This document shows, piece after piece, positions 1,257 through 18,038 of a DNA stretch of 64,000 bases. Numbering within the stretch: the first letter of the stretch is position 1; every line of letters starts with the position of its first letter. The stretch comes from Escherichia coli (GTDB lineage Bacteria; Pseudomonadota; Gammaproteobacteria; Enterobacterales; Enterobacteriaceae): the NCBI GenBank assembly GCA_029351405.1, contig GCA_029351405.1_4841.1; one strand, 5' to 3'. Position numbers and translations under genes: made by a program. The notes under the pieces are model-generated. The model was not told the origin of the DNA and did not search any database. It saw only the letters and a program-made list of their open reading frames with translations.

Positions 1257-1333
1257 GGTCCTGTAGCTCAGTCGGTTAGAGCAGTGAACTCATAATTCAT
1301 TGGTCATTGGTTCAAACCCAATCAGGATCACCA
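1257..1333 (+). tRNA. tRNA with CAT anticodon (Met, or Ile if lysidine-modified)
   Basis: Cloverleaf folded by eye: acceptor GGTCCTG/CAGGATC, anticodon stem GTGAA/TTCAT with loop CTCATAA, T-arm ATTGG-TTCAAAC-CCAAT, encoded CCA at 1331-1333. Confidence 0.75.
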
Positions 1334-1504
1334 TATTGAGGGGCGATAGTTTAATGGATAGCTGTCCGGACAGTGAATCCTCATAGAGAACGGCTGGGTG
1401 GCCAAACCCAGCAGGTGAGGTGAAAAGCCTCAGACCCCGCCAATACAGTTTGTTGTAAAATAAATGTTTGTTCAATAAACTTTATATGGTATAGTGATTT
1501 GCAA

Positions 1505-1580
1505 GACGATGTAGTTCAGTCGGTAGAACGGCGGTCTGTTAAACCGTATGTCGCAGGTTCAAGTCCTGCCATCGTCGCCA
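1505..1580 (+). tRNA. tRNA-Asn (GTT)
   Basis: Acceptor GACGATG/CATCGTC, D-arm GTTC-AGTCGGTA-GAAC, anticodon stem GCGGT/ACCGT with loop CTGTTAA, T-arm GCAGG-TTCAAGT-CCTGC, 3' GCCA. Confidence 0.8.
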
Positions 1581-1837
1581 GACAATGGGTGTGAACGAAA
1601 GTGAATAGGCATAAAGTACGCGACCGACAAGCTCCAAGCCTCTGTCCAATAGCCGAACGGAATCCGAAGACGACGATAGTAGCACTCACCAAATTCAGAG
1701 TGTAGAGGCTACAGTAGTGCGCACCTCACGGGTTGCTACACCGGACACTCTGATACAAATCTACCGCTGCGTGGATTAGCTGAGGAAGGATGGCCGATGT
1801 CCTCGAGCGTGGCCCAGCACGCAGCGGCAGACCAAAT

Positions 1838-1921
1838 GTGAGTGTGGCAGAGCGGTCGAATGCAGGAGACTGTAAATCTCCCCGTAACAGCGCGGTGGTT
1901 CGAATCCATCCACTCACACCA
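1838..1921 (+). tRNA. tRNA-Tyr (GTA), class II with long variable arm
   Basis: Acceptor GTGAGTG/CACTCAC, anticodon stem GGAGA/TCTCC with loop CTGTAAA, ~12 nt variable region, T-arm GGTGG-TTCGAAT-CCATC, 3' ACCA. Confidence 0.7.
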
Positions 1922-2141
1922 AACACAGTAAGCGTTGCAGCCAGCTGTGTATAAAATGGGGTGACTCCACATCGGAAACGATGCCCCAACTTCCAGAAAT
2001 GGTCGGGCGCAAAGCCTGTAAAGTTCCAGGAGATCGAACCAGAAGGCACTGGTCGCCAGTTAACCAATCGGCGCTGAGAAGCGCGGGGAGTTGGGCTACG
2101 GCAGATCAAATGCTCAATCGGGTGTGAAGCCCGTCCAAATT

Positions 2142-2230
2142 GGAAGGTTGCCCGAGAGGTTTAAGGGACTCGACTGCTAATCGAGTGGGGCTTTTAGCCC
2201 CCGAAGGTTCGAATCCTTCACCTTCCGCCA
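2142..2230 (+). tRNA. tRNA-Ser (GCT), class II with long variable arm
   Basis: Acceptor GGAAGGT/ACCTTCC, anticodon stem CTCGA/TCGAG with loop CTGCTAA, variable stem-loop GGGGCTTTTAGCCCC, T-arm GAAGG-TTCGAAT-CCTTC, 3' GCCA. Confidence 0.8.
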
Positions 2231-5707: not shown

Positions 5708-5802
5708 GATGTATTTCCTTCTCTTCAGATTGTTGTTTGTTCGTACTACAATTAGAAGTATACGCCAGTTATTGAAGAAGTAAACTTTATTCAATAAATA
5801 TT

Positions 5803-6015
5803 TTAATAAATTTTGAACTCTGCTCCCCTGTACGTCGCCGTCCCTCGTTCTATGAGGCCGTCAGGGACAATTACCTTTGTTGGCCAACCACCATCTGGAG
5901 CCTTAATAGTCAGGCGCGTCTTATGATCACCCAGCTGTGTTTGTTCATAGATCCTTCCGCGTACTATCGTCGCCCCGCCCTGGGTGACAAGCAATCTCTT
6001 GTTTACCACATTCAT
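5803..6015 (-). CDS. hypothetical small protein (70 aa)
   Basis: ORF in the same orientation as its neighbours, bounded by terminator-like hairpins. Confidence 0.4.
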   Translation of the reverse strand: MNVVNKRLLVTQGGATIVRGRIYEQTQLGDHKTRLTIKAPDGGWPTKVIVPDGLIERGTATYRGAEFKIY

Positions 6016-6020
6016 TCCCT

Positions 6021-6052
6021 AAACACCAAAAGAAAGGGGAGTTTCCTCCCCT
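6021..6052 (-). terminator. Intrinsic terminator (minus strand)
   Basis: Hairpin AGGGGAG-(TTTC)-CTCCCCT with a T-run on the minus strand just after the 6058-6648 stop. Confidence 0.55.
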
Positions 6053-6057
6053 TGAAC

Positions 6058-6648
6058 TTATTTCTTCAGATCAGGCCACGCACCAGAGGTCGCAGTAGAC
6101 CCAGCTGGGGGAGCAGACTCAAGATCGGGAGAACCCGACTGAGTAACAACAGTGGGATCTTTCTGTACGACCCGAACCCCAAATTGCTTGAGAGCATCCA
6201 TAGCTTGGGCTTTTCGCCTGTTGCTTTTGTAGTGGTTGTAGCCTTTGATACCGAATGATGCACTAATTGCTGTCAATAACGAATAGGTATACCATTCAGG
6301 TGCGGTATCTAGTGCCTGAAGGCCACCGATTACTGCTTTGATGAAATCCCCTTTATGATACTCACCAGGGAACAGAATCAGTTCCACAACCGGAGCAGTC
6401 ATGACGAGGATGGCGGGTATGGCCAACACGATAGTCCAGAATTCGTCTTTCCAAGACCCGCCGACTTCGGTGATCTTAGACAGCTCCCAATCTGAGGAGG
6501 ACTTGATGGCCTCCAGCTTGACGTCGTGTTTGGCCTGTACAACTTCCCGCTTATATTGGATCAAATCAGTCCCGAGGTTCCAGAGTTGCTTGAGCGCCCC
6601 TGGGATCATACCAACGAGGGGGATTGCCATAATAAACTCCTTGGTCAA
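6058..6648 (-). CDS. hypothetical membrane protein (196 aa)
   Basis: Hydrophobic segments (IPLVGMIPGAL, FWTIVLAIPAILVMTAPVV); divergent from the DNA polymerase gene. Confidence 0.5.
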   Translation of the reverse strand: MTKEFIMAIPLVGMIPGALKQLWNLGTDLIQYKREVVQAKHDVKLEAIKSSSDWELSKITEVGGSWKDEFWTIVLAIPAILVMTAPVVELILFPGEYHKGDFIKAVIGGLQALDTAPEWYTYSLLTAISASFGIKGYNHYKSNRRKAQAMDALKQFGVRVVQKDPTVVTQSGSPDLESAPPAGSTATSGAWPDLKK

Positions 6649-6709
6649 TGAATGGCTCTATGGTTAAATATGCCCACGTGCTAACGGCACGGATAACCTG
6701 GAGAATTAC

Positions 6710-9709
6710 ATGACCGTTTTCTATACGAACGTTGCCCGAAGGGGCAATGACCTGTTGATTCGAATTGCAGATGACATGGGTAATCGCCGTCTGTTGAAAA
6801 AGAAATTCGAACCCACTCTCTATTTACCCACGGTTGACTATTCAAATGTTGAAAAGGTCGGCCTTCTCAATGAACCCCTGGCAGCCAAGCAGTTCCCTTC
6901 CATGCGTGACGCTGATAACTATCTTGAAGAGTACAAGGAAGTCCAGGGTGCTGCCATTTACGGGCAGACCGATTATGCATACCAGTTCATCGCCCATAGC
7001 TTTCCTGGAAAGATTGAGCCGGATTACTCCAACATCCATATTGCTAACCTCGATATCGAAGTATTCTCCGCCGGGTGGAAAGACGGAAAGATGACCAAAG
7101 GTCCATTCCCTCACCCAACTATTGAGCAGCAGACGTTCAAAGGGAATGAGGCGCGCATTCGCCGCTTCCATAAACAAGTGCTGGCCAACCATGACTTTGT
7201 CCGTGAGCACTTCCCTGGTTCTTTCATCAGCAACAACGTCACTGATCAGTTCCCTATCATTGACAGCAACGGCAAGATCACCCAAGACATGAATGCGGCG
7301 TTCCCCATTACCCTGATCCAGCTTCAGGATATGGCGACCAATAAGTTCATGGTCTGGGGTATGCCCTGTGCCAAAGATCGTAACAAATTCGCATACGACA
7401 CCGAAGACAAAGAGATCGGCGGCCTTGAGGTTGTTTATCAGGAGTTCACCACCGAACAAGATCTGCTGCGCTCGTTCCTAGACTTCTGGTCGGAGCGTCA
7501 GTTCGACGGCTGGACAGGCTGGAACATTGAAACGTTCGATAGCCCGTATCTTGTTGAGCGTATGAACCAGGTTCTGGGTGAGGCTGAAACGTCGCGCCTC
7601 AGTCCTTGGGGTATCATTAAGAAGCGTATCATTCGCGATAAGAAGGGCGATATCACGACATATCAGTTCGTGGGCTGTCCTATGCTCGATTATATGCAGA
7701 TCTACAAGAAACACACGTACACCACCCGTGAACGCTACTCTCTTGACTGGATTGCGTATTGTGAGCTGGGTGAGAAGAAGATGGACTACAGTGAGAGCAA
7801 GTCGCTCTTTGATCTGTACTTCAACGACTACTGCAAACACACCCGATATGGTATCAAAGACGTTAAGCTGGTGTGGCGACTTGAACAGAAGCTGCGCCTG
7901 CTCCAGCTGATGTTCGTCCTGGCCTACCGCACCAAGTCCAACTATGAAGACGGTCTGGGCACTGTGGCTCCGTGGCTGGCCATGTGCTACTATCGCCTGT
8001 ACGAGAAGGGGATAGTGCCTAAGATCCAGCGTGTATACGATGGTCCGACCGACTTTGAGGGTGCATACGTCATGGATGTGACACCAGGAATCTACTTCTG
8101 GGTCTTCTCGGAAGATTTGAACTCCCTGTATCCTCACATCATTCAGCAGTACAACCTCGGTCCAGAGACTATCGTTGGCGACAAACACCAGCGCCGTGAG
8201 ATCATTGAGGCTATGTGTGAAGAGCTGGCTGCTCAGATGAATAACATGGCAACGCCGATGCACAAACGTCGGTTGATGAAAGCCCTTCACGACAAGCTGT
8301 TGCGTGCGGTTGACGAACGCCTGCAGGTTGTTGATGAGTTGGTTGCCCTGGGTGAGTTCCACTTTGAAACCCTGCGCCGCTACAACGTGTCGTTCACGCC
8401 GAACGTTCAATTCTTCAGCAACGAGAAGATGTCGTTCCTGTCTGAAATCATGCGTGGTATCTACAGCGACCGTAAAGTAGAGAAAGCCAAGGGTCTGAAA
8501 TACGAGCAGTGGGCTGGTTGGTGTAAAGAGATGTCGAAGGGTGACTTCCATCTTGAGTCTGCCATGAAGTCTCGCTACTATGACCCAGAGTGGTATGAAG
8601 AGCACAAGAACATTGATCTTGATGCCCTGACTGAAGTGATGAAGAAGTGGGAAGATCTGGGTGTTGCTCAAGATACCCTTCAGCAAGGTCTGAAGATCTT
8701 GATGAATGCAGGTTATGGCGCGATCTCAAACGTCTGGTTCAAAGAGTACTTCAACCTCAACATTGCCGAAGCCATCACCACATCCGGTCAGCTGATCAAC
8801 AAGTGGAACAAGCGTTACACTGATGACTATCTGAACAAGCTGTGTGGTACAACAGGCCAGGACTTCGTCATCGCAGGGGATACCGACTCCAACTACATCT
8901 GCATTGAGCGTCTTGTCAAGCAGTTGTGGCCTGATGTTACTGACCATCATGTTATGGTTGATAATATCGACCAATGGATCAAAGACAACTACCAGCCGAA
9001 GACCAATGAGTGGGCACAGCTTCTGTGTAACACCATGAACGGATTTGAACAGCGCATGGTGTGGGAGCGTGAGGTCATTGCGTCAGCCGCTGTCTGGCGA
9101 GCCAAGAAGATGTATGCCATGGCAGTGTACGACAGTGAGGGTATCAAGTACGAGAAGCCGAAGATCAAGTTCAAAGGCCTGGAAGCCCGCAAGTCCACCA
9201 CGCCGGAATGGTGTCGTGAGCGTCTTGTCAAGTGCTATGAGAAGATCCTACTAGGCACCGAAGAGGAAGTGCAGACGCTCATCTCCCAGTACAAAGAGGA
9301 GTACATGAAACTCTCTGTAGACGATATCGCCAAGGCTTCCGGCGTGTCCGACATAGAGAAGTGTGTGGCTGCTGACGGATCGTTCATCTCTGGTGCTCAT
9401 TTTGCTGCCAAGGCTTGTGTGGGCTACAACCGTCTGGTTGAGAAGAACGAAGATCTGGGTCTACCGATGATCGAGTCGGGTGATAAGGTACAGATGGTGT
9501 TGTTGAAGCCAGGCAACCCATTCGGCCAGAATTACTTTGCATATCCTGAGTTCTTCCCTGAGGAGCTTGGTCTGGGTAAATGGGTGGATTATCAGGCGGC
9601 CTTTGAGAAGTCCTTCATTGATCCGATTCAGTCTATCCTCGACGTGGTCGGCTGGTCACACAAGCGCCGTGTGAACCTTCTTGCCATGATGCAAAAGAAG
9701 AAAGGTTGA
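6710..9709 (+). CDS. 43: DNA polymerase, family B (T4 gp43-like)
   Basis: 999 aa; N-terminus KFPSMRDADNYL...ANLDIEV parallels T4 gp43 KFPSMKDARDW...ANCDIEV; motif B KILMNAGYG and motif C GDTDSNY; GGAG RBS. Confidence 0.95.
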   Translation: MTVFYTNVARRGNDLLIRIADDMGNRRLLKKKFEPTLYLPTVDYSNVEKVGLLNEPLAAKQFPSMRDADNYLEEYKEVQGAAIYGQTDYAYQFIAHSFPGKIEPDYSNIHIANLDIEVFSAGWKDGKMTKGPFPHPTIEQQTFKGNEARIRRFHKQVLANHDFVREHFPGSFISNNVTDQFPIIDSNGKITQDMNAAFPITLIQLQDMATNKFMVWGMPCAKDRNKFAYDTEDKEIGGLEVVYQEFTTEQDLLRSFLDFWSERQFDGWTGWNIETFDSPYLVERMNQVLGEAETSRLSPWGIIKKRIIRDKKGDITTYQFVGCPMLDYMQIYKKHTYTTRERYSLDWIAYCELGEKKMDYSESKSLFDLYFNDYCKHTRYGIKDVKLVWRLEQKLRLLQLMFVLAYRTKSNYEDGLGTVAPWLAMCYYRLYEKGIVPKIQRVYDGPTDFEGAYVMDVTPGIYFWVFSEDLNSLYPHIIQQYNLGPETIVGDKHQRREIIEAMCEELAAQMNNMATPMHKRRLMKALHDKLLRAVDERLQVVDELVALGEFHFETLRRYNVSFTPNVQFFSNEKMSFLSEIMRGIYSDRKVEKAKGLKYEQWAGWCKEMSKGDFHLESAMKSRYYDPEWYEEHKNIDLDALTEVMKKWEDLGVAQDTLQQGLKILMNAGYGAISNVWFKEYFNLNIAEAITTSGQLINKWNKRYTDDYLNKLCGTTGQDFVIAGDTDSNYICIERLVKQLWPDVTDHHVMVDNIDQWIKDNYQPKTNEWAQLLCNTMNGFEQRMVWEREVIASAAVWRAKKMYAMAVYDSEGIKYEKPKIKFKGLEARKSTTPEWCRERLVKCYEKILLGTEEEVQTLISQYKEEYMKLSVDDIAKASGVSDIEKCVAADGSFISGAHFAAKACVGYNRLVEKNEDLGLPMIESGDKVQMVLLKPGNPFGQNYFAYPEFFPEELGLGKWVDYQAAFEKSFIDPIQSILDVVGWSHKRRVNLLAMMQKKKG

Positions 9710-12677: not shown

Positions 12678-12843
12678 TTTTATCTTCATGATGCTGATGT
12701 TCGTTATCTTCACGGTATCGCTCGTCGGCGCCATGGTCACAGAAGGGGTTCCACAACGTCCCTTCCTGGTGATTTGTCCTGTATCGATCGCCACTTTCTT
12801 CTATCTGGCGTTCCGTGTTGAATTGGGGAACAAACTCGAATGA
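12658..12843 (+). CDS. small membrane protein (61 aa)
   Basis: Hydrophobic FIFMMLMFVIFTVSLVGAMV; translationally coupled to its neighbours. Confidence 0.4.
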   Translation: MKIKSVDFIFMMLMFVIFTVSLVGAMVTEGVPQRPFLVICPVSIATFFYLAFRVELGNKLE

Positions 12844-14075
12844 CACATCTATCTAAAATGCCGACGGGCTATACGCCCCCGGCTGAATGGAAGTACCCGA
12901 TTGACCTATCTGTTGACTACCGTAAACCTGAGAATCGCATGTACCTGCTCAAGGCTTGGGTGGAGGCGCTGTCCTACACAGAAGAGCACAACCAGCAGAT
13001 GCGTCTGATGGACTATGCGATTGAAGTCACTGAAGGCATCAGCCTCGAACAGAAAGTCGAGCGCAAGATCTGGATGGCATTCCTGTGGGGTTGTTGCTAT
13101 AACGCTGTCGGACCGTGGACGATCTACAGTGAGTTCCCTATGCCACCCCAGTCCAAAGAAGAGATGCAGCGCTTCTCTGATTGGTATAATCTGAACTTTG
13201 AACGCATGCGATTCGATACCGACTGTCGCTACCGCAAGTCCAAGATGATTCCGTGTGTTCAGTCCTATATTGACTGGCTGGCTGGCCGTACTCAATATGA
13301 CGCTTTCCGTGGGATGTTGGTGTGCATCGATAAGACAGAACAATTCACCCAGCTGTGGGACACGGCGATGTCCTGGAAATACTTCGGTCGCCTGAGCGCC
13401 TGGAACTTCCTGGAAGCCCTGAACATGGTCTTCGGGAACGAATACACCATTGACGTCCCTGGCTTCATGCTGCGTGATCGTGATGGAAGCGAGTCCAACC
13501 GTAATGGCGCGGCGTTCTTGTCCAACCGTGACGATTGGGTGACTAAACACGGGAAGAAAAAGATCAACGGTTGCCCTATCACGGATGAAGAGTGTGACAT
13601 CCTTGAGGCCGACCTTGAGCAGGCGTTCCAGGATTGTGTGGCTGAGTTCGGACACCTGACGTTCATCAACCGTCTGAACTTTGAAACCTCCGGTGCTTGT
13701 TGGCTGAAGAAATTCTTCCGACTGAAGAATACCCGTTATATCGGGTGGGACGCAGAGCGTACCTGGGATGAGATAGACTACATGGAACGCGTCTGGCCTG
13801 AATACTCCTGCGCAGCGCTCTGGGAAGCCCGTTCTCTCTGGCTACCAGATACCCTGTTGTGCGAAAAGGCTCCTGCAGGGCACGTTCCAGGCGTCCAGAA
13901 GTGGAAGATGCCTGTGTTCTTTGAGACTGGTGTTCCTCTGCATATCTGGCACCTGCAAAAGGGTACGCGCTGGGAACCATCCGAGGTCTGTACGAACCTG
14001 AAGATGCCTGTGCGCAAGGTTGAGGACAAGTCGAAGTCCAGCAGCGTCAACCTCATGGCACTCTTGAAACGCTGA
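12840..14075 (+). CDS. hypothetical protein (411 aa), candidate DNA-modification enzyme
   Basis: Long ORF overlapping the upstream stop; no catalytic motif recognised by eye; sits downstream of the P-loop kinase. Confidence 0.55.
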   Translation: MTHLSKMPTGYTPPAEWKYPIDLSVDYRKPENRMYLLKAWVEALSYTEEHNQQMRLMDYAIEVTEGISLEQKVERKIWMAFLWGCCYNAVGPWTIYSEFPMPPQSKEEMQRFSDWYNLNFERMRFDTDCRYRKSKMIPCVQSYIDWLAGRTQYDAFRGMLVCIDKTEQFTQLWDTAMSWKYFGRLSAWNFLEALNMVFGNEYTIDVPGFMLRDRDGSESNRNGAAFLSNRDDWVTKHGKKKINGCPITDEECDILEADLEQAFQDCVAEFGHLTFINRLNFETSGACWLKKFFRLKNTRYIGWDAERTWDEIDYMERVWPEYSCAALWEARSLWLPDTLLCEKAPAGHVPGVQKWKMPVFFETGVPLHIWHLQKGTRWEPSEVCTNLKMPVRKVEDKSKSSSVNLMALLKR

Positions 14076-14111
14076 TATAAATATCCTCGCCTATAAAGCG
14101 AGGATATTATC

Positions 14112-14279
14112 ATGTTACAAGATCTGCTGGTTTATGCGCTTCCTGGCGCGGTTGTCGGCTTCATCGCTGGCGCTCTGGTCTTCCGTAAACACGCGCAAGA
14201 CGGTGAGGTGATTGTTCAGAAGGGTAAAGATATCCTAGAACAAATCGAAGCCAAACTGGACGAGCTGAAGAAAAAGTAA
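14112..14279 (+). CDS. small membrane protein (55 aa, below the ORF-track cutoff)
   Basis: ATG at 14112 with GAGGAT RBS; hydrophobic LLVYALPGAVVGFIAGALVF; followed by a terminator. Confidence 0.35.
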   Translation: MLQDLLVYALPGAVVGFIAGALVFRKHAQDGEVIVQKGKDILEQIEAKLDELKKK

Positions 14280-14306
14280 TCTGACTGGGGTTGCTTCCTT
14301 CAATAA

Positions 14307-14346
14307 AGGGGAATGGGTTATTATTAGCCCGTTCCCCTTTCTTTTT
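14307..14346 (+). terminator. Rho-independent terminator
   Basis: Hairpin GGGGAA(T)GGG-(TTATTATTAG)-CCC(G)TTCCCC followed by TTTCTTTTT; TTCAATAAA motif immediately upstream. Confidence 0.6.
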
Positions 14347-14361
14347 GCAAGGATATACATC

Positions 14362-14559
14362 ATGGAAACCCAAGATTATAAGATCTTAGTGACAACCGTT
14401 GGTTTCGACGGGAAGAATCAATCTATTGCAGTAGACACTTCCGTTCTGGAGTTCAAGGACAAGAGTTCGGCAGAAACGGCGTTTGCTCATTTGGTGGAAT
14501 CACAAAGATATATGAGCACTTTTATGCGTGTCAAACAAACATACACCAAACTCTATTAA
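14362..14559 (+). CDS. hypothetical protein (65 aa)
   Basis: ORF after the terminator in the plus-strand early-type block. Confidence 0.45.
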   Translation: METQDYKILVTTVGFDGKNQSIAVDTSVLEFKDKSSAETAFAHLVESQRYMSTFMRVKQTYTKLY

Positions 14560-14571
14560 GAGGATTTCACT

Positions 14572-14796
14572 ATGGCAATGCAACGAATTGAAGATATGGA
14601 CTCCCTGGATATCGAATCTATGGTGTCTGTAATGCTCGAAGAAGATCGCAAGACCCCTGTGGTACAGTATCAGATGCCGGAATTGGGCGACGCTGATGGG
14701 CTGTGGAAAATGCTGAACGACAACAAATCCTCCGGTAAGAATGGGTTTGTCCGTGGCGAACTGAATATCATTTGTGTCGGAGGGTGTACAAGATGA
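14572..14796 (+). CDS. hypothetical protein (74 aa)
   Basis: Acidic N-terminus; stop overlaps the next start. Confidence 0.45.
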   Translation: MAMQRIEDMDSLDIESMVSVMLEEDRKTPVVQYQMPELGDADGLWKMLNDNKSSGKNGFVRGELNIICVGGCTR

Positions 14797-15011
14797 TCAA
14801 GAATACTCGAACAATGAAGCGCGCAATCGCTCACTGTGTCCATTCAGTGGCAACTATTATGTTCCGCCACCACATCACATTTGATGAAGCACTGGACCCA
14901 CAGTACCATGAAGAGCGTTGGGATTTGTTGTTAAAGAACGGTGCCAATCCTGAGCATAAAGATCAACTCCTTGGGATGACCAAGGCGCAGCTCGTCGGTG
15001 AATCCAAATGA
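14793..15011 (+). CDS. hypothetical protein (72 aa)
   Basis: Start set at ATG 14793 in an ATGA overlap; the track ORF begins at 14772. Confidence 0.45.
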   Translation: MIKNTRTMKRAIAHCVHSVATIMFRHHITFDEALDPQYHEERWDLLLKNGANPEHKDQLLGMTKAQLVGESK

Positions 15012-16123
15012 TCTACCTCCTGTTTGGTGTGCCATTGGTACTGGCTATCCTGTTTGTGACCTACCACCGCAAGACCCATGAGCCGAAAGAGACTCTGATA
15101 GCGACCGCGATTGTAGTGGTGCTATCCTGTCTGATTCAGGCGGGGACTTATGCTGCGTTCTCCCTTGGTAGTTCAGGGGATGTTGAGATCCTGAACGGGT
15201 ACGTCACTGCAAAGGAGCGGAATAAGGTGAGTTGTGAGCATTCATATGAATGCAACTGCTACTACACCACATCATGTTCCGGTTCCGGTAGCAGCAAGTC
15301 ATGTACCCGCACCCGCCATTGCAGCACATGCTATGAGCACTCTTATGACGTTGATTGGGATGTATTAACAACCGTCGGTGATCTGAGCATTGACCGTATT
15401 GATCGTCAGGGTACTACAGAGCCCCCGCGCTGGTCACAAGTTAAAATCGGGGAACCTGCGGCGCGTGAACATTCATATATGAATTATGTGCTGGGCAACA
15501 AAGACTCTCTGTTCTCCCGCTCAGACCAGCAGTTTGCTGAGCGTTTCAAAGACAAGATTCCCAAGTACCCTGAGGTCTATGACTACTATCGCGTCACTCG
15601 TGTGCTGAACGTGTCCGGCCTGGCGTTACCGACCACATACTGGAACGACTATCTGAACGATGTCCTGAAGAAGCTGGGTGCAGCCAAGCAGGTGAACATC
15701 GTATGGGTTGTGACTTCCGGTCAGCCAGTTGAATACTTCCAGGGCTTGGTCTATGCTTGGGATGGTGGTAAAAAGAACGACGTTATCGTCGTGACCGACA
15801 TCAACAAAGATCTGAAGATCAACTGGGGCAAGAGCACTTCGTTCGCTGATGGTATGCACAACCGTGAACTCCATTCTCGCAATGGCATGGCTCTCACAGG
15901 CCACGACATGGGCGTCGGTGTCATGGCTGATGTTGTCGCTAACATCACCAAAGGCTACAACCGCGTTGAGATGAAGGAAATGGAGTACCTGAAGTGGCGG
16001 GAACTCAAGACCTGGGAAGTTGTGATTGTTGTTCTGCTAGGCTGTCTGCCGTTCACCGCAATTTTCATATTACAGCGAATGGAGTACAATGGTGGCCGTC
16101 GTCGTTATCCGTTTAATTTTTAA
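15008..16123 (+). CDS. membrane protein with Cys-rich region (371 aa), LemA partner
   Basis: N-terminal and C-terminal transmembrane helices; cluster CEHSYECNCYY...CSGSGSSKSC...HCSTC; immediately upstream of the LemA-like gene. Confidence 0.55.
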   Translation: MIYLLFGVPLVLAILFVTYHRKTHEPKETLIATAIVVVLSCLIQAGTYAAFSLGSSGDVEILNGYVTAKERNKVSCEHSYECNCYYTTSCSGSGSSKSCTRTRHCSTCYEHSYDVDWDVLTTVGDLSIDRIDRQGTTEPPRWSQVKIGEPAAREHSYMNYVLGNKDSLFSRSDQQFAERFKDKIPKYPEVYDYYRVTRVLNVSGLALPTTYWNDYLNDVLKKLGAAKQVNIVWVVTSGQPVEYFQGLVYAWDGGKKNDVIVVTDINKDLKINWGKSTSFADGMHNRELHSRNGMALTGHDMGVGVMADVVANITKGYNRVEMKEMEYLKWRELKTWEVVIVVLLGCLPFTAIFILQRMEYNGGRRRYPFNF

Positions 16124-16141
16124 TCAAAAGAGGAAGTAAGA

Positions 16142-16711
16142 ATGTCTCAATCTAAGGGTATCGCAACAGGTTGGATAGTTGGTTTGGCTTTGCTGGGTGT
16201 AGTGATTCTCGGCATCGGTACAGTCATCAGCTACTTCAACGACTTCAACCGCACTGAGCAGCAGGTCAAGAAGTTCAACAAAGACTCCGAGAACTACCTG
16301 AGCAACTACACACTCAAAGTTCAAGAGACGGCGCAGATTCCTGACATGTATAAAGACGGCCTGAAGGAAGTGATCAAAGGCACGTTCGAAGGGCGTTATG
16401 GTGCTGATGGTTCCAAGGCCGTCATGCAGTGGATCCAGGAGCAGAATATTCAGTTCGATTCCAGCCTGTACAAAGAGATCCAGGTGGTGATCAGTTCTGG
16501 GCGTGATGAATTCCGCATCAGCCAGACCAAGAAGCTGGATATCTGCACAATATACGAAACCAAGCTGGCTCAGTTCCCTGGTTCGTTGATTGCTGGCATG
16601 TTCGGCTACCCGCGTATCGACCTTGACAAGACCTGCCAGGTGGTGAGCGATACCCGTACCCAGGCCGCGTTCGACGCTGGTATTCAGAAACCGATTAACT
16701 TCAAAGGCTGA
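16142..16711 (+). CDS. LemA-family protein
   Basis: 189 aa; N-terminal TM helix; C-terminal FPGSLIAGMFGYPRIDLD resembles the LemA FPxxxxAGMxGF motif; AAGAGGAAG RBS. Confidence 0.6.
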   Translation: MSQSKGIATGWIVGLALLGVVILGIGTVISYFNDFNRTEQQVKKFNKDSENYLSNYTLKVQETAQIPDMYKDGLKEVIKGTFEGRYGADGSKAVMQWIQEQNIQFDSSLYKEIQVVISSGRDEFRISQTKKLDICTIYETKLAQFPGSLIAGMFGYPRIDLDKTCQVVSDTRTQAAFDAGIQKPINFKG

Positions 16712-16715
16712 TGTC

Positions 16716-17129
16716 ATGAGCGTGAAACTCACTGAATCCCTGACACTGGACCAACAGCAGGCTCTGTTGGATGAGGTGGTGATCTCTGCTATCAAGCAAG
16801 GGATTATCAAAGACGACATGTTGATTGACCGCCCCGAGATGATCCATCATCTGGTGGTGTGCCTGGGTGAGGCCAGCAACCCTCGCAAGAAGATCGTGCT
16901 GTTTACTGATGGTGTGATCCTTCCGAGCGGGAAATGTGCGTTCTTGGATGTGGTTGAACATCCGAACACGAAAGGCAAAGAGGTCAAGACTTCTGTTCCG
17001 GTGACCCCATACACCGAGGGTGTTGACCAGCTGTCTTGGTTTGAAACAATCAACACCATTTATGTGATGGCACCGGACGGTAAACCAGTTCGGGATCTAC
17101 GAGGCGGGAAAGTAGAATCTGAAGTCTAA
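16716..17129 (+). CDS. hypothetical protein (137 aa)
   Basis: ORF closely following the LemA-like gene; followed by a terminator. Confidence 0.5.
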   Translation: MSVKLTESLTLDQQQALLDEVVISAIKQGIIKDDMLIDRPEMIHHLVVCLGEASNPRKKIVLFTDGVILPSGKCAFLDVVEHPNTKGKEVKTSVPVTPYTEGVDQLSWFETINTIYVMAPDGKPVRDLRGGKVESEV

Positions 17130-17144
17130 TCGTTCTTCAATAAA

Positions 17145-17178
17145 AGGGGATAGGGTATCATTGCTCTATCCCCTTTTT
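17145..17178 (+). terminator. Rho-independent terminator
   Basis: Hairpin GGGGATAG-(12 nt)-CTATCCCC followed by TTTTT; TTCAATAAA motif immediately upstream. Confidence 0.65.
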
Positions 17179-17241
17179 CGTGGACAGGAACATGACAGAC
17201 AAGCCAAGAAAGATGAAGAACAAACGCCGGAGCAAACGCTG

Positions 17242-17697
17242 ATGACTACCAAACCAACTTATGAAGAACTGGCGCAGACCGTTCTGACCTTCGACAGCAC
17301 CCTGAAGAATCTTTACAAGGTGCTAGGAAATAACCCGACTTCAGAGTCAGGAGAAACAGTTAATCTTCTGTTACTGATGAACCCTCTGTGGGATATTGAT
17401 GCCATTGTTACTGCCCTGAAAGATCCTGGGGCAAAGGAGCCGGAGCCAACCCCTGTATCCACTGGGATTCAGAATTATCTGGAGAACTTTGATGAGTACT
17501 CCTTCACCAATCTGCTCCTGCGTGATATGATCAACACAGAACGCCGTCGCCAGGGAAAGAACTACCCTGTGGTCCAGTCTGATGAAGAAATCGAGCAGAG
17601 TGTTCGAGAAGATCTGAACAGCACCTACTCGCCGATCGATCTGGCTGTGATGATTGTTCAGGCACTGTCCTACGCCGCCAAAGGAGAAACGAAATGA
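17242..17697 (+). CDS. hypothetical protein (151 aa)
   Basis: Start set at MTTKPT (ATG 17242, GGAG RBS); the track ORF start at 17161 lies inside the terminator hairpin. Confidence 0.45.
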   Translation: MTTKPTYEELAQTVLTFDSTLKNLYKVLGNNPTSESGETVNLLLLMNPLWDIDAIVTALKDPGAKEPEPTPVSTGIQNYLENFDEYSFTNLLLRDMINTERRRQGKNYPVVQSDEEIEQSVREDLNSTYSPIDLAVMIVQALSYAAKGETK

Positions 17698-17897
17698 AGC
17701 CCAAGATGTCCTCAGTAGCGCTGGCCGCAGCTTTGGCTCTATCGGAAAGTGTTGCTCTTTCATCACACCGTGGCGAGTTTTGGACAGAACGCTATACCAA
17801 CTATGAAGGTCCAGGCATGCCAGGGCATGGTCGCCCATCTGTAACCCGCAAGAAGAAGGCGAAGACCCATGGAAAGAACAAGCGCAAACGTAAGTGA
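17694..17897 (+). CDS. small protein with hydrophobic N-terminus and Lys/Arg-rich tail (67 aa)
   Basis: ATGA overlap with the upstream gene; ends KKKAKTHGKNKRKRK. Confidence 0.4.
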   Translation: MKPKMSSVALAAALALSESVALSSHRGEFWTERYTNYEGPGMPGHGRPSVTRKKKAKTHGKNKRKRK

Positions 17898-18038
17898 GGA
17901 GCGCCTGAAGGATCTTTCTGCAGGCACTCCAAAGTTGGCCAGATCATGGGTGATGTTTGATGACCGACGAGATAATCTTCCTTCGAGCAGAGGTCGCTCG
18001 ATTAAGTAAAACCGAACCCAAAAAGTAGAGGATATGTT

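What the first reader, a model, noticed from the sequence alone, without database searches (positions are those of the whole stretch)
15008..16711. LemA-family protein with a Cys-rich membrane partner in a phage early region
The 189-aa protein has the LemA N-terminal TM helix and a C-terminal FPxxxxAGMxGY motif. It directly follows a 371-aa protein with TM helices at both ends and a dense Cys cluster, resembling the bacterial LemA plus membrane-partner pairs. Such a module is not part of the canonical T4 gene set and its function is unknown even in bacteria.
Basis: partly seen in the sequence, partly recalled or inferred. Interest (0 to 1): 0.5.

Follow-up and report, generated by a model that had tools for sequence, protein, structure and literature searches.

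The report
Phage LemA-like plus TPM-fold membrane pair
Two adjacent genes of a ViI-like (Ackermannviridae) phage encode a distant, phage-adapted version of the bacterial LemA/TPM membrane-protein pair, which probably faces the periplasm; the pair is kept together in about 1% of sequenced phage genomes, and its function is unknown in phages and in bacteria.

Summary
ORF A (15008-16123, 371 aa) and ORF B (16142-16711, 189 aa) are tightly packed same-strand genes of an Ackermannviridae phage (96-97% nt identity to fGh-Ecl02 and AV101), not of a T4-type phage.

B misses Pfam's LemA cut-off (13.7 vs 26.2 bits). Its family profile still finds LemA structure 2ETD as the best PDB hit (E 6e-4). It aligns to a profile of true LemA proteins at 96.7% probability (E 3.5e-10), transmembrane (TM) anchor included. 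It shares the 9-mer FPGSLIAGM with a Neobacillus LemA.

Cys and His residues are lost in pairs (C84/C105, C90/C99, H78/H111 in A; C135/C165 in B). This argues for disulfides, and therefore for periplasmic domains.

B accompanies A on the same strand in 104 of 112 loci. No third gene is conserved with them. Phage-genome counts match (A in 484 records, B in 498).

The 'virion structural protein' label is unsupported. Function is inferred only. Verdict: new variant of a known kind, moderate interest.

The parts
15008..16123 (+). Gene A: 371-aa membrane protein with a TM hairpin, a Cys/His-stapled beta domain, a TPM-fold domain and a C-terminal TM anchor. It belongs to phrog_2087 (unknown function).
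   Evidence: ORF; PHROG E 5.7e-164; AF2 model with pLDDT 91.5; 2180 clusters at 50% identity in the 1.84 billion representatives.
15008..15175 (+). A residues 1-56: two N-terminal TM helices joined by a short basic loop (YHRKTHEPK). The predicted topology is N-terminus out and loop in.
   Evidence: AF2 helices 2-20 and 26-56; hydropathy and charge inspection. Topology is inferred.
15176..15481 (+). A residues 57-158: beta-rich Cys/His domain. C84/C105, C90/C99 and H78/H111 are cross-strand pairs of a beta hairpin (i+j=189). C76 and C82 are (nearly) invariant, and C108 varies together with H78/H111.
15602..15997 (+). A residues ~199-330: alpha/beta TPM-fold domain with the near-invariant motif WxGGKKND.
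16010..16090 (+). A residues 335-361: C-terminal TM anchor, followed by a short Gly/Arg tail (GGRRRY) predicted to be cytoplasmic. Bacterial LemA-linked TPM proteins have the same layout.
16124..16141 (+). 18-nt spacer between A and B with the ribosome-binding site GAGGA.
   Evidence: Sequence read.
16142..16711 (+). Gene B: 189-aa single-pass membrane protein with a helical domain remotely homologous to bacterial LemA. It belongs to phrog_1383.
   Evidence: ORF; PHROG E 5.2e-86; profile vs PDB gives 2ETD as top hit, E 5.8e-4; hhalign vs the LemA alignment gives Prob 96.7%, E 3.5e-10 over 144 columns.
16163..16237 (+). B residues ~8-32: N-terminal TM anchor. The short N-terminus MSQSKG is predicted cytoplasmic.
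   Evidence: The TM segment aligns with the LemA TM segment.
16577..16612 (+). B residues 146-157: FPGSLIAGMFGY, the LemA C-terminal signature.
   Evidence: The 9-mer FPGSLIAGM is identical in Neobacillus LemA. It is aligned to FPGVIFAKMFGF of 2ETD. This is the only stretch matched by Pfam LemA.
16544..16636 (+). B residues 135-165: C135 and C165 form a co-varying Cys pair, inferred to be a disulfide.
   Evidence: Both present in 101 sequences, neither in 88, one only in 1, out of 190 unique sequences.

Best explanation
Genes A and B are the phage counterpart of the bacterial lemA-TPM operon.

Shown:
- B has an N-terminal membrane anchor plus a helical domain that is a remote homologue of LemA.
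- A carries a TPM-fold domain followed by a C-terminal membrane anchor, as bacterial LemA-linked TPM proteins do. A also has an N-terminal TM hairpin and a Cys/His-stapled beta domain that the two bacterial TPM partners examined here lack.
- The two genes are inherited together as a self-contained pair across many families of large virulent phages.

Inferred from paired loss of Cys residues and from charge distribution:
- Both large domains sit on the periplasmic face of the host inner membrane and are disulfide-bonded.

Inferred:
- The two proteins form a membrane-tethered periplasmic complex.
- Characterised TPM proteins (Psb32/TLP18.3 on photosystem II, AscF on the mycobacterial CIII-CIV supercomplex) dock on the outer face of a membrane complex as auxiliary or assembly factors. 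By analogy, I propose that this complex binds a conserved inner-membrane or periplasmic host component and keeps the envelope functional (intact and energised) during the long infection cycle of large phages. This would make it an auxiliary envelope-maintenance module rather than a virion or replication component.

My estimates: identity of the folds and the pair about 0.9, complex formation about 0.6, the envelope-maintenance role about 0.3.
For: LemA link:
- Profile of 50 B homologues vs all PDB sequences: LemA 2ETD is the top hit, E 5.8e-4, nearly full length.
- hhalign vs the 2ETD sequence alone: E 3.2e-5.
- hhalign vs 27 PF04011 proteins: Prob 96.7%, E 3.5e-10, 144 columns including the TM helix.
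- LemA is the Pfam family hit by the most B members (9 of 50).
- The 9-mer FPGSLIAGM is identical in Neobacillus LemA.

TPM link:
- TPM_phosphatase is the Pfam family hit by the most A members (12 of 63).
- The same 'TPM domain, then TM, then Gly/Arg tail' layout occurs in the Thermotoga and Neobacillus TPM partners.

Bacterial precedent:
- lemA is directly followed by a TPM_phosphatase gene in Thermotoga (the 2ETD protein itself) and in Neobacillus.

Pair conservation:
- B follows A on the same strand in 84 of 85 phage-type loci, and in 104 of 112 loci overall.
- No other neighbour is conserved beyond about 23 Ackermannviridae loci.
- Genome counts by host genus are nearly identical: A in 484 and B in 498 of 50,697 phage records.
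- One 553-aa natural A+B fusion has a linker between A's last TM and B's TM, which fits the proposed topology.

Periplasmic location:
- Paired loss of C84/C105 and C90/C99 in A and of C135/C165 in B.
- A has a basic C-terminal tail and a basic TM1-TM2 loop.

TPM proteins as auxiliary or assembly factors:
- PMC11237479.
- Abstracts of PMC13456599, PMC13089150 and bioRxiv 10.1101/2025.05.08.652833.

Conservation pattern:
- 35-45% identity with 12 invariant residues across phages of very different hosts. This argues for a conserved target or ligand.
Against: - No experiment bears on function, and neither bacterial LemA nor its TPM partner has a known mechanism.
- B fails Pfam's LemA gathering score (13.7 vs 26.2 bits).
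- B lacks the invariant LemA motif QLQRRxDLIPNLV.
- A itself has no Pfam TPM hit, and sequence-level hhalign to single TPM proteins is weak (Prob 27% and 1.7%).
- Complex formation was not modelled.
- In ICP1 only 8 of 82 genomes carry the module, so it is dispensable there. That pattern fits a conflict or exclusion gene as well as a maintenance gene.
- Expression timing is unknown.
Confidence: 0.55

Rival explanations
1. Superinfection exclusion. The periplasm-facing A-B complex blocks genome entry (or tail-lysozyme or channel formation) by a second phage at the inner membrane, in the manner of T4 Imm and Sp.
For: The pair is membrane-anchored, probably periplasm-facing. It sits among small accessory ORFs. 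It is accessory and patchy in ICP1, present in 8 of 82 genomes and within a variable region. It is spread patchily over unrelated phage families, which suggests horizontal transfer.
Against: The family is unusually conserved for an exclusion gene: 35-45% identity and invariant residues across phages of Enterobacteria, Vibrio, Aeromonas, Acinetobacter and Sinorhizobium. It is related to a housekeeping-type bacterial operon. There is no similarity to known exclusion or defence families (PADLOC gave only a weak TM/coiled-coil match).
Confidence: 0.15
2. Lysis-timing control. A and/or B act as holin, antiholin or lysis-inhibition partners of the neighbouring rIIA/rIIB genes.
For: B has the topology of the T4 holin T and antiholin RI (this comparison is from my own knowledge): one N-terminal TM plus a periplasmic, disulfide-bonded domain. 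rIIA lies 1.8 kb downstream.
Against: PHROGs assigns neither protein to a lysis family. Linkage to rII is limited to Ackermannviridae, since no neighbour beyond A and B is conserved across lineages. The homologous bacterial pair is chromosomal and not linked to lysis genes.
Confidence: 0.1
3. Periplasmic enzyme or metal-dependent ligand binder. The TPM domain (some TPM proteins show phosphatase or ATPase/ADPase activity) together with the His/Cys site of the beta domain hydrolyses or binds a small periplasmic molecule.
For: Polar residues are strictly invariant in A (K69, R141, N159, D192, N257), and there is a perfectly co-varying H78/H111 pair with C108. PMC11237479 cites reported TPM phosphatase and ATPase/ADPase activities.
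Against: Catalysis is disputed for TPM domains, and AscF lacks metal and nucleotide binding (abstract of PMC13456599). LemA has no known catalytic role.
Confidence: 0.1
4. B is a virion structural protein, as labelled in PHROGs (phrog_1383) and in many RefSeq records.
For: The annotation 'virion structural protein' appears in phrog_1383 and in RefSeq records of AG3, LIMEstone1, maane, May and others.
Against: In LIMEstone1, ORF194 and ORF195 are A and B (B is 96.8% identical). Neither is among the 39 virion proteins found by ESI-MS/MS, a list that ends at ORF174 (PMC3296691). The AG3 paper analysed only six gel bands, and the passages read do not mention this gene. An N-terminal TM anchor, periplasmic disulfide signals and LemA homology do not fit a tailed-phage virion part. 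One record even calls it 'major capsid protein', which shows that labels have been propagated wrongly.
Confidence: 0.04

Closest known systems
Bacterial LemA family (Pfam PF04011, COG1704; structure 2ETD, Thermotoga maritima TM0961)
   Same: Length is about 190 aa. There is a single N-terminal TM anchor with a short basic N-terminus, and a helical domain alignable over 144 columns (hhalign 96.7%). The C-terminal FPxxxxAxMxG[FY] motif is shared, with the identical 9-mer FPGSLIAGM. The neighbouring gene encodes a TPM-fold protein.
   Different: B scores below Pfam's gathering score. The invariant LemA motif QLQRRxDLIPNLV is absent, and B has a family-specific segment GRYGADGSKAVMQWIQEQN instead. 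About half of the family has an extra disulfide pair. The predicted 3-D packing does not superpose well on 2ETD. The gene lies after, not before, the TPM gene, and it is encoded by virulent phages.
TPM domain proteins (Pfam PF04536: TLP18.3/Psb32, MOLO-1, BA41/BA42, PG_0361, cg2496, AscF), especially the TPM proteins encoded next to bacterial lemA
   Different: A has no Pfam-level sequence match. Where bacterial TPM partners have a cleavable signal peptide, A has a TM hairpin and a ~100-residue Cys/His-stapled beta domain with no clear structural relative. A forms a separate family of 2180 clusters at 50% identity with uniform length of about 350-390 aa.
T4 Imm/Sp and T4 holin T/antiholin RI (phage inner-membrane and periplasmic accessory proteins)
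   Same: These are small phage-encoded proteins anchored in the inner membrane with periplasmic domains (the T4 details are from my own knowledge). In Ackermannviridae the pair lies near the rII genes.
   Different: No lysis or exclusion family was matched in PHROGs, Pfam or PADLOC. The pair is conserved across many phage families, whereas those T4 proteins are, to my knowledge, lineage-specific.

Membership tests
LemA (Pfam PF04011) | Scores at or above Pfam's gathering threshold (26.2 bits) | tested here: not met
   The window protein scores 13.7 bits, E 0.056, over residues 125-158 only. 9 of 50 family members match at E<1, best E 0.0016. The precomputed Pfam column is empty for all 98 homologues.
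LemA (Pfam PF04011) | Homology over the whole domain, detectable by profile methods | tested here: met
   Family HMM vs PDB: 2ETD is the top hit, E 5.8e-4, profile 30-160 against chain 9-156. hhalign vs 27 PF04011 proteins: Prob 96.7%, E 3.5e-10, 144 columns.
LemA (Pfam PF04011) | About 190 aa with one N-terminal TM anchor and an all-helical domain | tested here: met
   B is 189 aa. Its TM segment has a Kyte-Doolittle peak at residues 13-26, and AF2 predicts seven helices and no strands. Thermotoga and Neobacillus LemA are 193 and 191 aa with a TM peak at residues ~10-29 and ~10-21.
LemA (Pfam PF04011) | C-terminal FP-x4-A-x-M/L-x-G-F/Y motif | tested here: met
   B has FPGSLIAGMFGY at 146-157. 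Neobacillus LemA has FPGSLIAGMTGF and 2ETD has FPGVIFAKMFGF.
LemA (Pfam PF04011) | Invariant N-terminal motif QLQRRxDLIPNLV | tested here: not met
   The motif is invariant in the LemA alignment A3. The aligned B segment reads NYLSNYTLKVQETAQIP.
LemA (Pfam PF04011) | Three-dimensional similarity to the solved LemA structure 2ETD | tested here: inconclusive
   [not shown]
LemA (Pfam PF04011) | Adjacent, same-strand gene for a TPM-domain membrane protein | tested here: met
   The phage partner has a TPM fold. The order is reversed (TPM gene first) in all but one locus (L088).
TPM domain (Pfam PF04536) | Scores at or above Pfam's gathering threshold | tested here: not met
   The window protein has no PF04536 hit. 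12 of 63 family members match at E<1, best E 1.8e-4.
TPM domain (Pfam PF04536) | TPM alpha/beta fold | tested here: met
   [not shown]
TPM domain (Pfam PF04536) | Extracytoplasmic domain followed by a C-terminal TM helix | tested here: met
   In A the TPM domain (~199-330) is followed by a TM helix (335-361) and a GGRRRY tail. The Thermotoga and Neobacillus TPM partners have a signal peptide, TPM domain, TM helix and Gly/Arg tail. Location outside the cytoplasm is inferred from disulfide covariation, not measured.
TPM domain (Pfam PF04536) | Phosphatase or nucleotidase activity, or binding to a membrane complex | not testable with these tools
   This requires biochemistry.
Virion structural protein (label of phrog_1383 and RefSeq) | Detected in purified virions | tested here: not met
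   LIMEstone1 ORF194 and ORF195 are absent from its 39-protein ESI-MS/MS virion list (PMC3296691).
Phage lysis proteins (holin, antiholin, RI/RIII, spanin) | Sequence membership in a lysis family | tested here: not met
   PHROGs gives only phrog_2087 and phrog_23737 (unknown function) for A and phrog_1383 for B. Only noise-level holin hits appear in 3 of 63 A members, E >= 0.027.

The most novel reading that the evidence does not exclude
The A-B pair is a widespread phage 'envelope guard'. It would be a disulfide-stapled, possibly metal-binding periplasmic complex that latches onto a universally conserved inner-membrane machine of Gram-negative hosts, either to keep it running or to close it to competitors. 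If so, working out its target would reveal the long-unknown function of the bacterial LemA-TPM operon as well.
Probability: 0.2. Interest if true: 0.7.

Novelty: new variant of a known kind. Interest (0 to 1): 0.5.

Why it matters
LemA and its TPM partner are very widespread bacterial membrane proteins: the search with the 2ETD sequence saturated at 8000 scored hits. No mechanism is known for either.

This work shows that about 1% of sequenced phage genomes carry a diverged, strictly paired version, across several distinct groups of large phages: Ackermannviridae, Aeh1-like phages, GAP32-, RaK2- and RAY-like jumbo phages, phages of about 105-120 kb that I take to be T5-like, and some ICP1 isolates. 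Lak megaphages matched for B only.

Phage genetics offers a simple route to a phenotype and to the host target: delete two genes, or compare natural ICP1 isolates with and without the module. That could also open up the bacterial system.

The result also corrects a propagated annotation ('virion structural protein', in one record 'major capsid protein'). It gives the unannotated 371-aa partner (phrog_2087) a fold assignment.

Tried and rejected
- Direct Pfam, NCBIfam and PADLOC scans of the two proteins gave nothing above threshold. The PADLOC LeoBC match (E 3e-4, B residues 9-112) covers the TM and first-helix region, and I discounted it.
- Single-sequence searches of the PDB gave nothing.
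- The afdb50 fold library was unavailable, so I could not look for full-length bacterial analogues of A.
- hhalign of the A family against single TPM sequences was weak. The TPM assignment therefore rests on the predicted fold and on sub-threshold Pfam hits.
- Five literature searches on LemA or TPM in phages found no study of this module. Several 'LemA' hits were the surname Lemay.
- The genome-reduction study of the Ackermannviridae phage selz (PMC9825161) might say whether the genes are removable. Its supplementary tables are not held, and gene numbers could not be mapped.
- A search for Ackermannviridae transcriptomes found nothing usable.
- The promoter scan was at chance level (7 found vs 6.0 expected), so expression timing is unassigned.
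- The Achromobacter and Variovorax isolate loci (L087, L092) were checked for prophage context without a clear answer. L087 has YqaJ, RecA and MscS-like neighbours; L092 has no Pfam hits.
Full report
WHAT IS THERE

The window comes from an Ackermannviridae (ViI-like, Aglimvirinae) phage. Bases 14000-18000 are 96-97% identical to Enterobacter phage fGh-Ecl02 and to Escherichia phages AV101 and A221, and 229 phage records match. G+C is about 49%. The phage is not of T4 type.

ORF A (15008-16123, 371 aa) and ORF B (16142-16711, 189 aa) are on the + strand. They are packed like an operon:
- A's ATG overlaps the stop of the upstream 79-aa ORF (ATGA).
- An 18-nt spacer with GAGGA precedes B.
- The next ORF starts 4 nt after B's stop.

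Upstream lies an amino-acid:DNA transferase gene (Pfam ADDT, E 1e-59). Downstream lies rIIA. A strong terminator-like hairpin (16-bp stem, 14305-14340) precedes the block. It follows a T4-late-type TATAAATA (14076) and a 55-aa membrane ORF. LIMEstone1's authors annotated the same layout, with the pair as ORF194 and ORF195. I could not assign a promoter to the A-B block, so 'early region' remains unproven.

IS B LemA-LIKE?

The direct Pfam scan is sub-threshold: 13.7 bits against a cut-off of 26.2, covering residues 125-158 only. Profile methods are clear:
- An HMM of 50 homologues (alignment A1) finds LemA structure 2ETD as the best of all PDB sequences. E is 5.8e-4, and the match spans profile positions 30-160 and chain residues 9-156.
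- hhalign against the 2ETD sequence alone gives E 3.2e-5.
- hhalign against an alignment of 27 bona fide PF04011 proteins gives Prob 96.7%, E 3.5e-10, over 144 columns including the TM helix.
FPGSLIAGM is an identical 9-mer in Neobacillus LemA.

Three results count against simple membership:
- The invariant LemA motif QLQRRxDLIPNLV is missing.
- The AF2 model of B (pLDDT 84) does not superpose convincingly on 2ETD. Foldseek puts 2ETD at rank 5 with E 0.44.

I therefore call B a remote LemA homologue that forms its own phage family (phrog_1383), not a PF04011 member.

WHAT IS A?

A has no family-level annotation (phrog_2087, unknown function). The AF2 model is confident (pLDDT 91.5, pTM 0.81). 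It shows, in order:
- two N-terminal TM helices;
- a beta-rich domain (residues 57-158);
- an alpha/beta domain (about 199-330);
- a C-terminal TM helix (335-361).

THE BACTERIAL PRECEDENT

In Thermotoga (the very protein of 2ETD) and in Neobacillus, lemA is directly followed by a TPM_phosphatase gene, with overlapping stop and start. Those TPM proteins have a signal peptide, the TPM domain, a TM helix and a Gly/Arg tail. The bacterial LemAs have a basic N-terminus followed by a TM helix.

The C-terminal half of A has the same layout: TPM domain, TM helix, GGRRRY tail. The phage pair is therefore the same two-fold module, with two differences. The gene order is reversed, and an extra TM hairpin plus a Cys/His beta domain is added to the TPM protein.

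TOPOLOGY

In 226 unique A sequences, Cys and His residues are lost in pairs:

| Pair | Both present | First only | Second only | Neither |
|---|---|---|---|---|
| C84/C105 | 182 | 0 | 2 | 25 |
| C90/C99 | 195 | 4 | 2 | 15 |
| H78/H111 | 206 | 0 | 0 | 16 |

All three pairs satisfy i+j=189. They are therefore cross-strand neighbours on the AF2 hairpin formed by strands 80-91 and 98-108. C84/C105 and C90/C99 are lost independently of each other. That fits two disulfides rather than one Cys4 site. H78, H111 and C108 vary together, which may mark a metal site. The variant form is that of the GAP32-like jumbo phages.

In B, C135 and C165 are both present in 101 sequences, both absent in 88, and single in 1.

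Disulfides imply an oxidising compartment. Together with the basic TM1-TM2 loop and the basic C-terminal tail of A, this places both large domains in the periplasm. One natural 553-aa A+B fusion (P0346) joins A's last TM to B's TM through a short linker, which is topologically consistent. All of this is inference, not measurement.

CONSERVATION AND DISTRIBUTION

- In 84 of 85 loci from viral collections and related contigs, B follows A on the same strand, mostly directly. The one exception is a truncated contig.
- Over all 112 loci, A and B are the only conserved genes. Other neighbours are shared only by about 23 Ackermannviridae loci.
- A has 2180 relatives (clusters at 50% identity) at E<=1e-3 among 1.84 billion representatives, with uniform length.
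- Among 50,697 phage genomes, A is found in 484 and B in 498, with near-identical counts per host genus.
- Carriers named in those hit lists are: Ackermannviridae; Aeromonas Aeh1-like phages; the GAP32/PBECO4/K64-1 and Erwinia RAY-type jumbo phages; Vibrio, Providencia and Pectobacterium phages of about 105-120 kb, which I take to be T5-like; Acinetobacter phages of about 104 kb; Sinorhizobium phiM7; and Pseudomonas Lu11.
- Prevotella Lak megaphages and Tenacibaculum PTm5 matched for B only.
- In Vibrio phage ICP1 the module lies in a variable region, and only 8 of 82 ICP1-type genomes carry it.
- In bacterial genomes A is rare: 27 loci in 185,579 species. Most are MAG contigs that keep the pair. 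Four loci have A alone in apparently cellular surroundings.

THE 'VIRION STRUCTURAL PROTEIN' LABEL

PHROGs and many RefSeq records give B this name. One GenBank record even calls it 'major capsid protein'. In LIMEstone1, B is 96.8% identical. Its 39-protein virion proteome lists neither ORF194 nor ORF195 (PMC3296691). The AG3 paper analysed six gel bands only. I found no primary evidence for the label. A TM-anchored, probably periplasmic LemA homologue is an unlikely virion part.

HOW IT PROBABLY WORKS

Shown: the two folds, the pairing, and the conservation.

Inferred: a periplasm-facing, membrane-tethered A-B complex. Characterised TPM proteins are auxiliary or assembly factors that dock on the outer face of membrane complexes. 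Examples are Psb32/TLP18.3 on photosystem II, AscF in the CIII-CIV supercomplex, and YdjH with PspA (PMC11237479; abstracts).

The phage family is strongly conserved across very different hosts, with 12 invariant residues. That points to a conserved target or ligand. My best guess is an auxiliary envelope-maintenance module of large virulent phages (about 0.3). Rivals are superinfection exclusion (0.15), lysis-timing control (0.1), a periplasmic enzyme or metal-dependent binder (0.1) and a virion component (0.04).

No paper on this phage module turned up in five literature searches.

VERDICT

This is a new variant of a known, but functionally unsolved, kind of system. Interest is moderate (0.5). 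It is not categorically new, but it offers a tractable route to a long-standing unknown.

Noticed in passing
window 14076-14340: A T4-late-type TATAAATA (14076-14083) precedes a 55-aa single-TM ORF (14112-14279, phrog_3879). A very strong terminator-like hairpin (16-bp stem, 14305-14340) follows. LIMEstone1's authors annotated the same mini-cassette as late promoter, ORF191 and terminator.
   Followed up: partly
window 12840-14075: This 411-aa protein matches Pfam ADDT (amino acid:DNA transferase, E 1e-59). I take it to be part of the thymidine hypermodification pathway of ViI-like phages. One GenBank record names the homologue aGPT-Pplase clade 2.
   Followed up: no
window 1257-2230: Cluster of four tRNA genes (Met, Asn, Tyr, Ser) at the start of the window.
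   Followed up: no
L101, L105, L108, L109 (A homologue at about 5800-7100 in each): These are stand-alone A homologues (32-35% identity) without a B gene, in apparently cellular contexts. Neighbours include nuoL/K/J-like genes, a histidine kinase, Ser/Thr kinases, and a TrmB-like methyltransferase with a racemase. The contigs come from Myxococcota-like and Rickettsiales-labelled MAGs.
   Followed up: partly
protein P0346 (553 aa): This is a natural fusion of A (residues 1-355) and B (371-552, E 1e-66), with a short linker between A's last TM and B's TM. It is a single cluster and could be a lost stop codon or an assembly or gene-call artefact.
   Followed up: partly
L115 2989-4582 (Vibrio phage ICP1 isolate 2017_DRC_32): The A-B module sits in a variable block between the genes formerly called GP41 and GP30. 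Only 8 of 82 ICP1-type genomes carry it.
   Followed up: partly
[not shown]
   Followed up: no
L091, L094-L096, L098-L100, L102, L104, L111, L112: 11 of the 27 'genome' loci that carry A are contigs binned into CPR/Patescibacteria MAGs (Saccharibacteria, Sungiibacteriota, Kaiserbacteria, Paceibacterota, SR1, Peribacteria). They may be mis-binned large-phage contigs or phages of CPR bacteria.
   Followed up: no
L088 341-1992: This is the only locus seen with the bacterial gene order (B before A, same strand). In several jumbo-phage loci (L036, L048, L049, L083, L084) 0.35-1.3 kb is inserted between A and B.
   Followed up: no
phage records H100, H114: There are annotation errors in public records. 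B is labelled 'virion structural protein' in RefSeq LIMEstone1, although that phage's own virion proteome lacks it. B is labelled 'major capsid protein' in Pectobacterium phage DU_PP_V.
   Followed up: yes
phage records H126, H127: B-like proteins are also found in Prevotella Lak megaphages (15 records, about 548 kb) and in Tenacibaculum phage PTm5. This extends the family to phages of Bacteroidota. Whether A is next to them was not checked.
   Followed up: no
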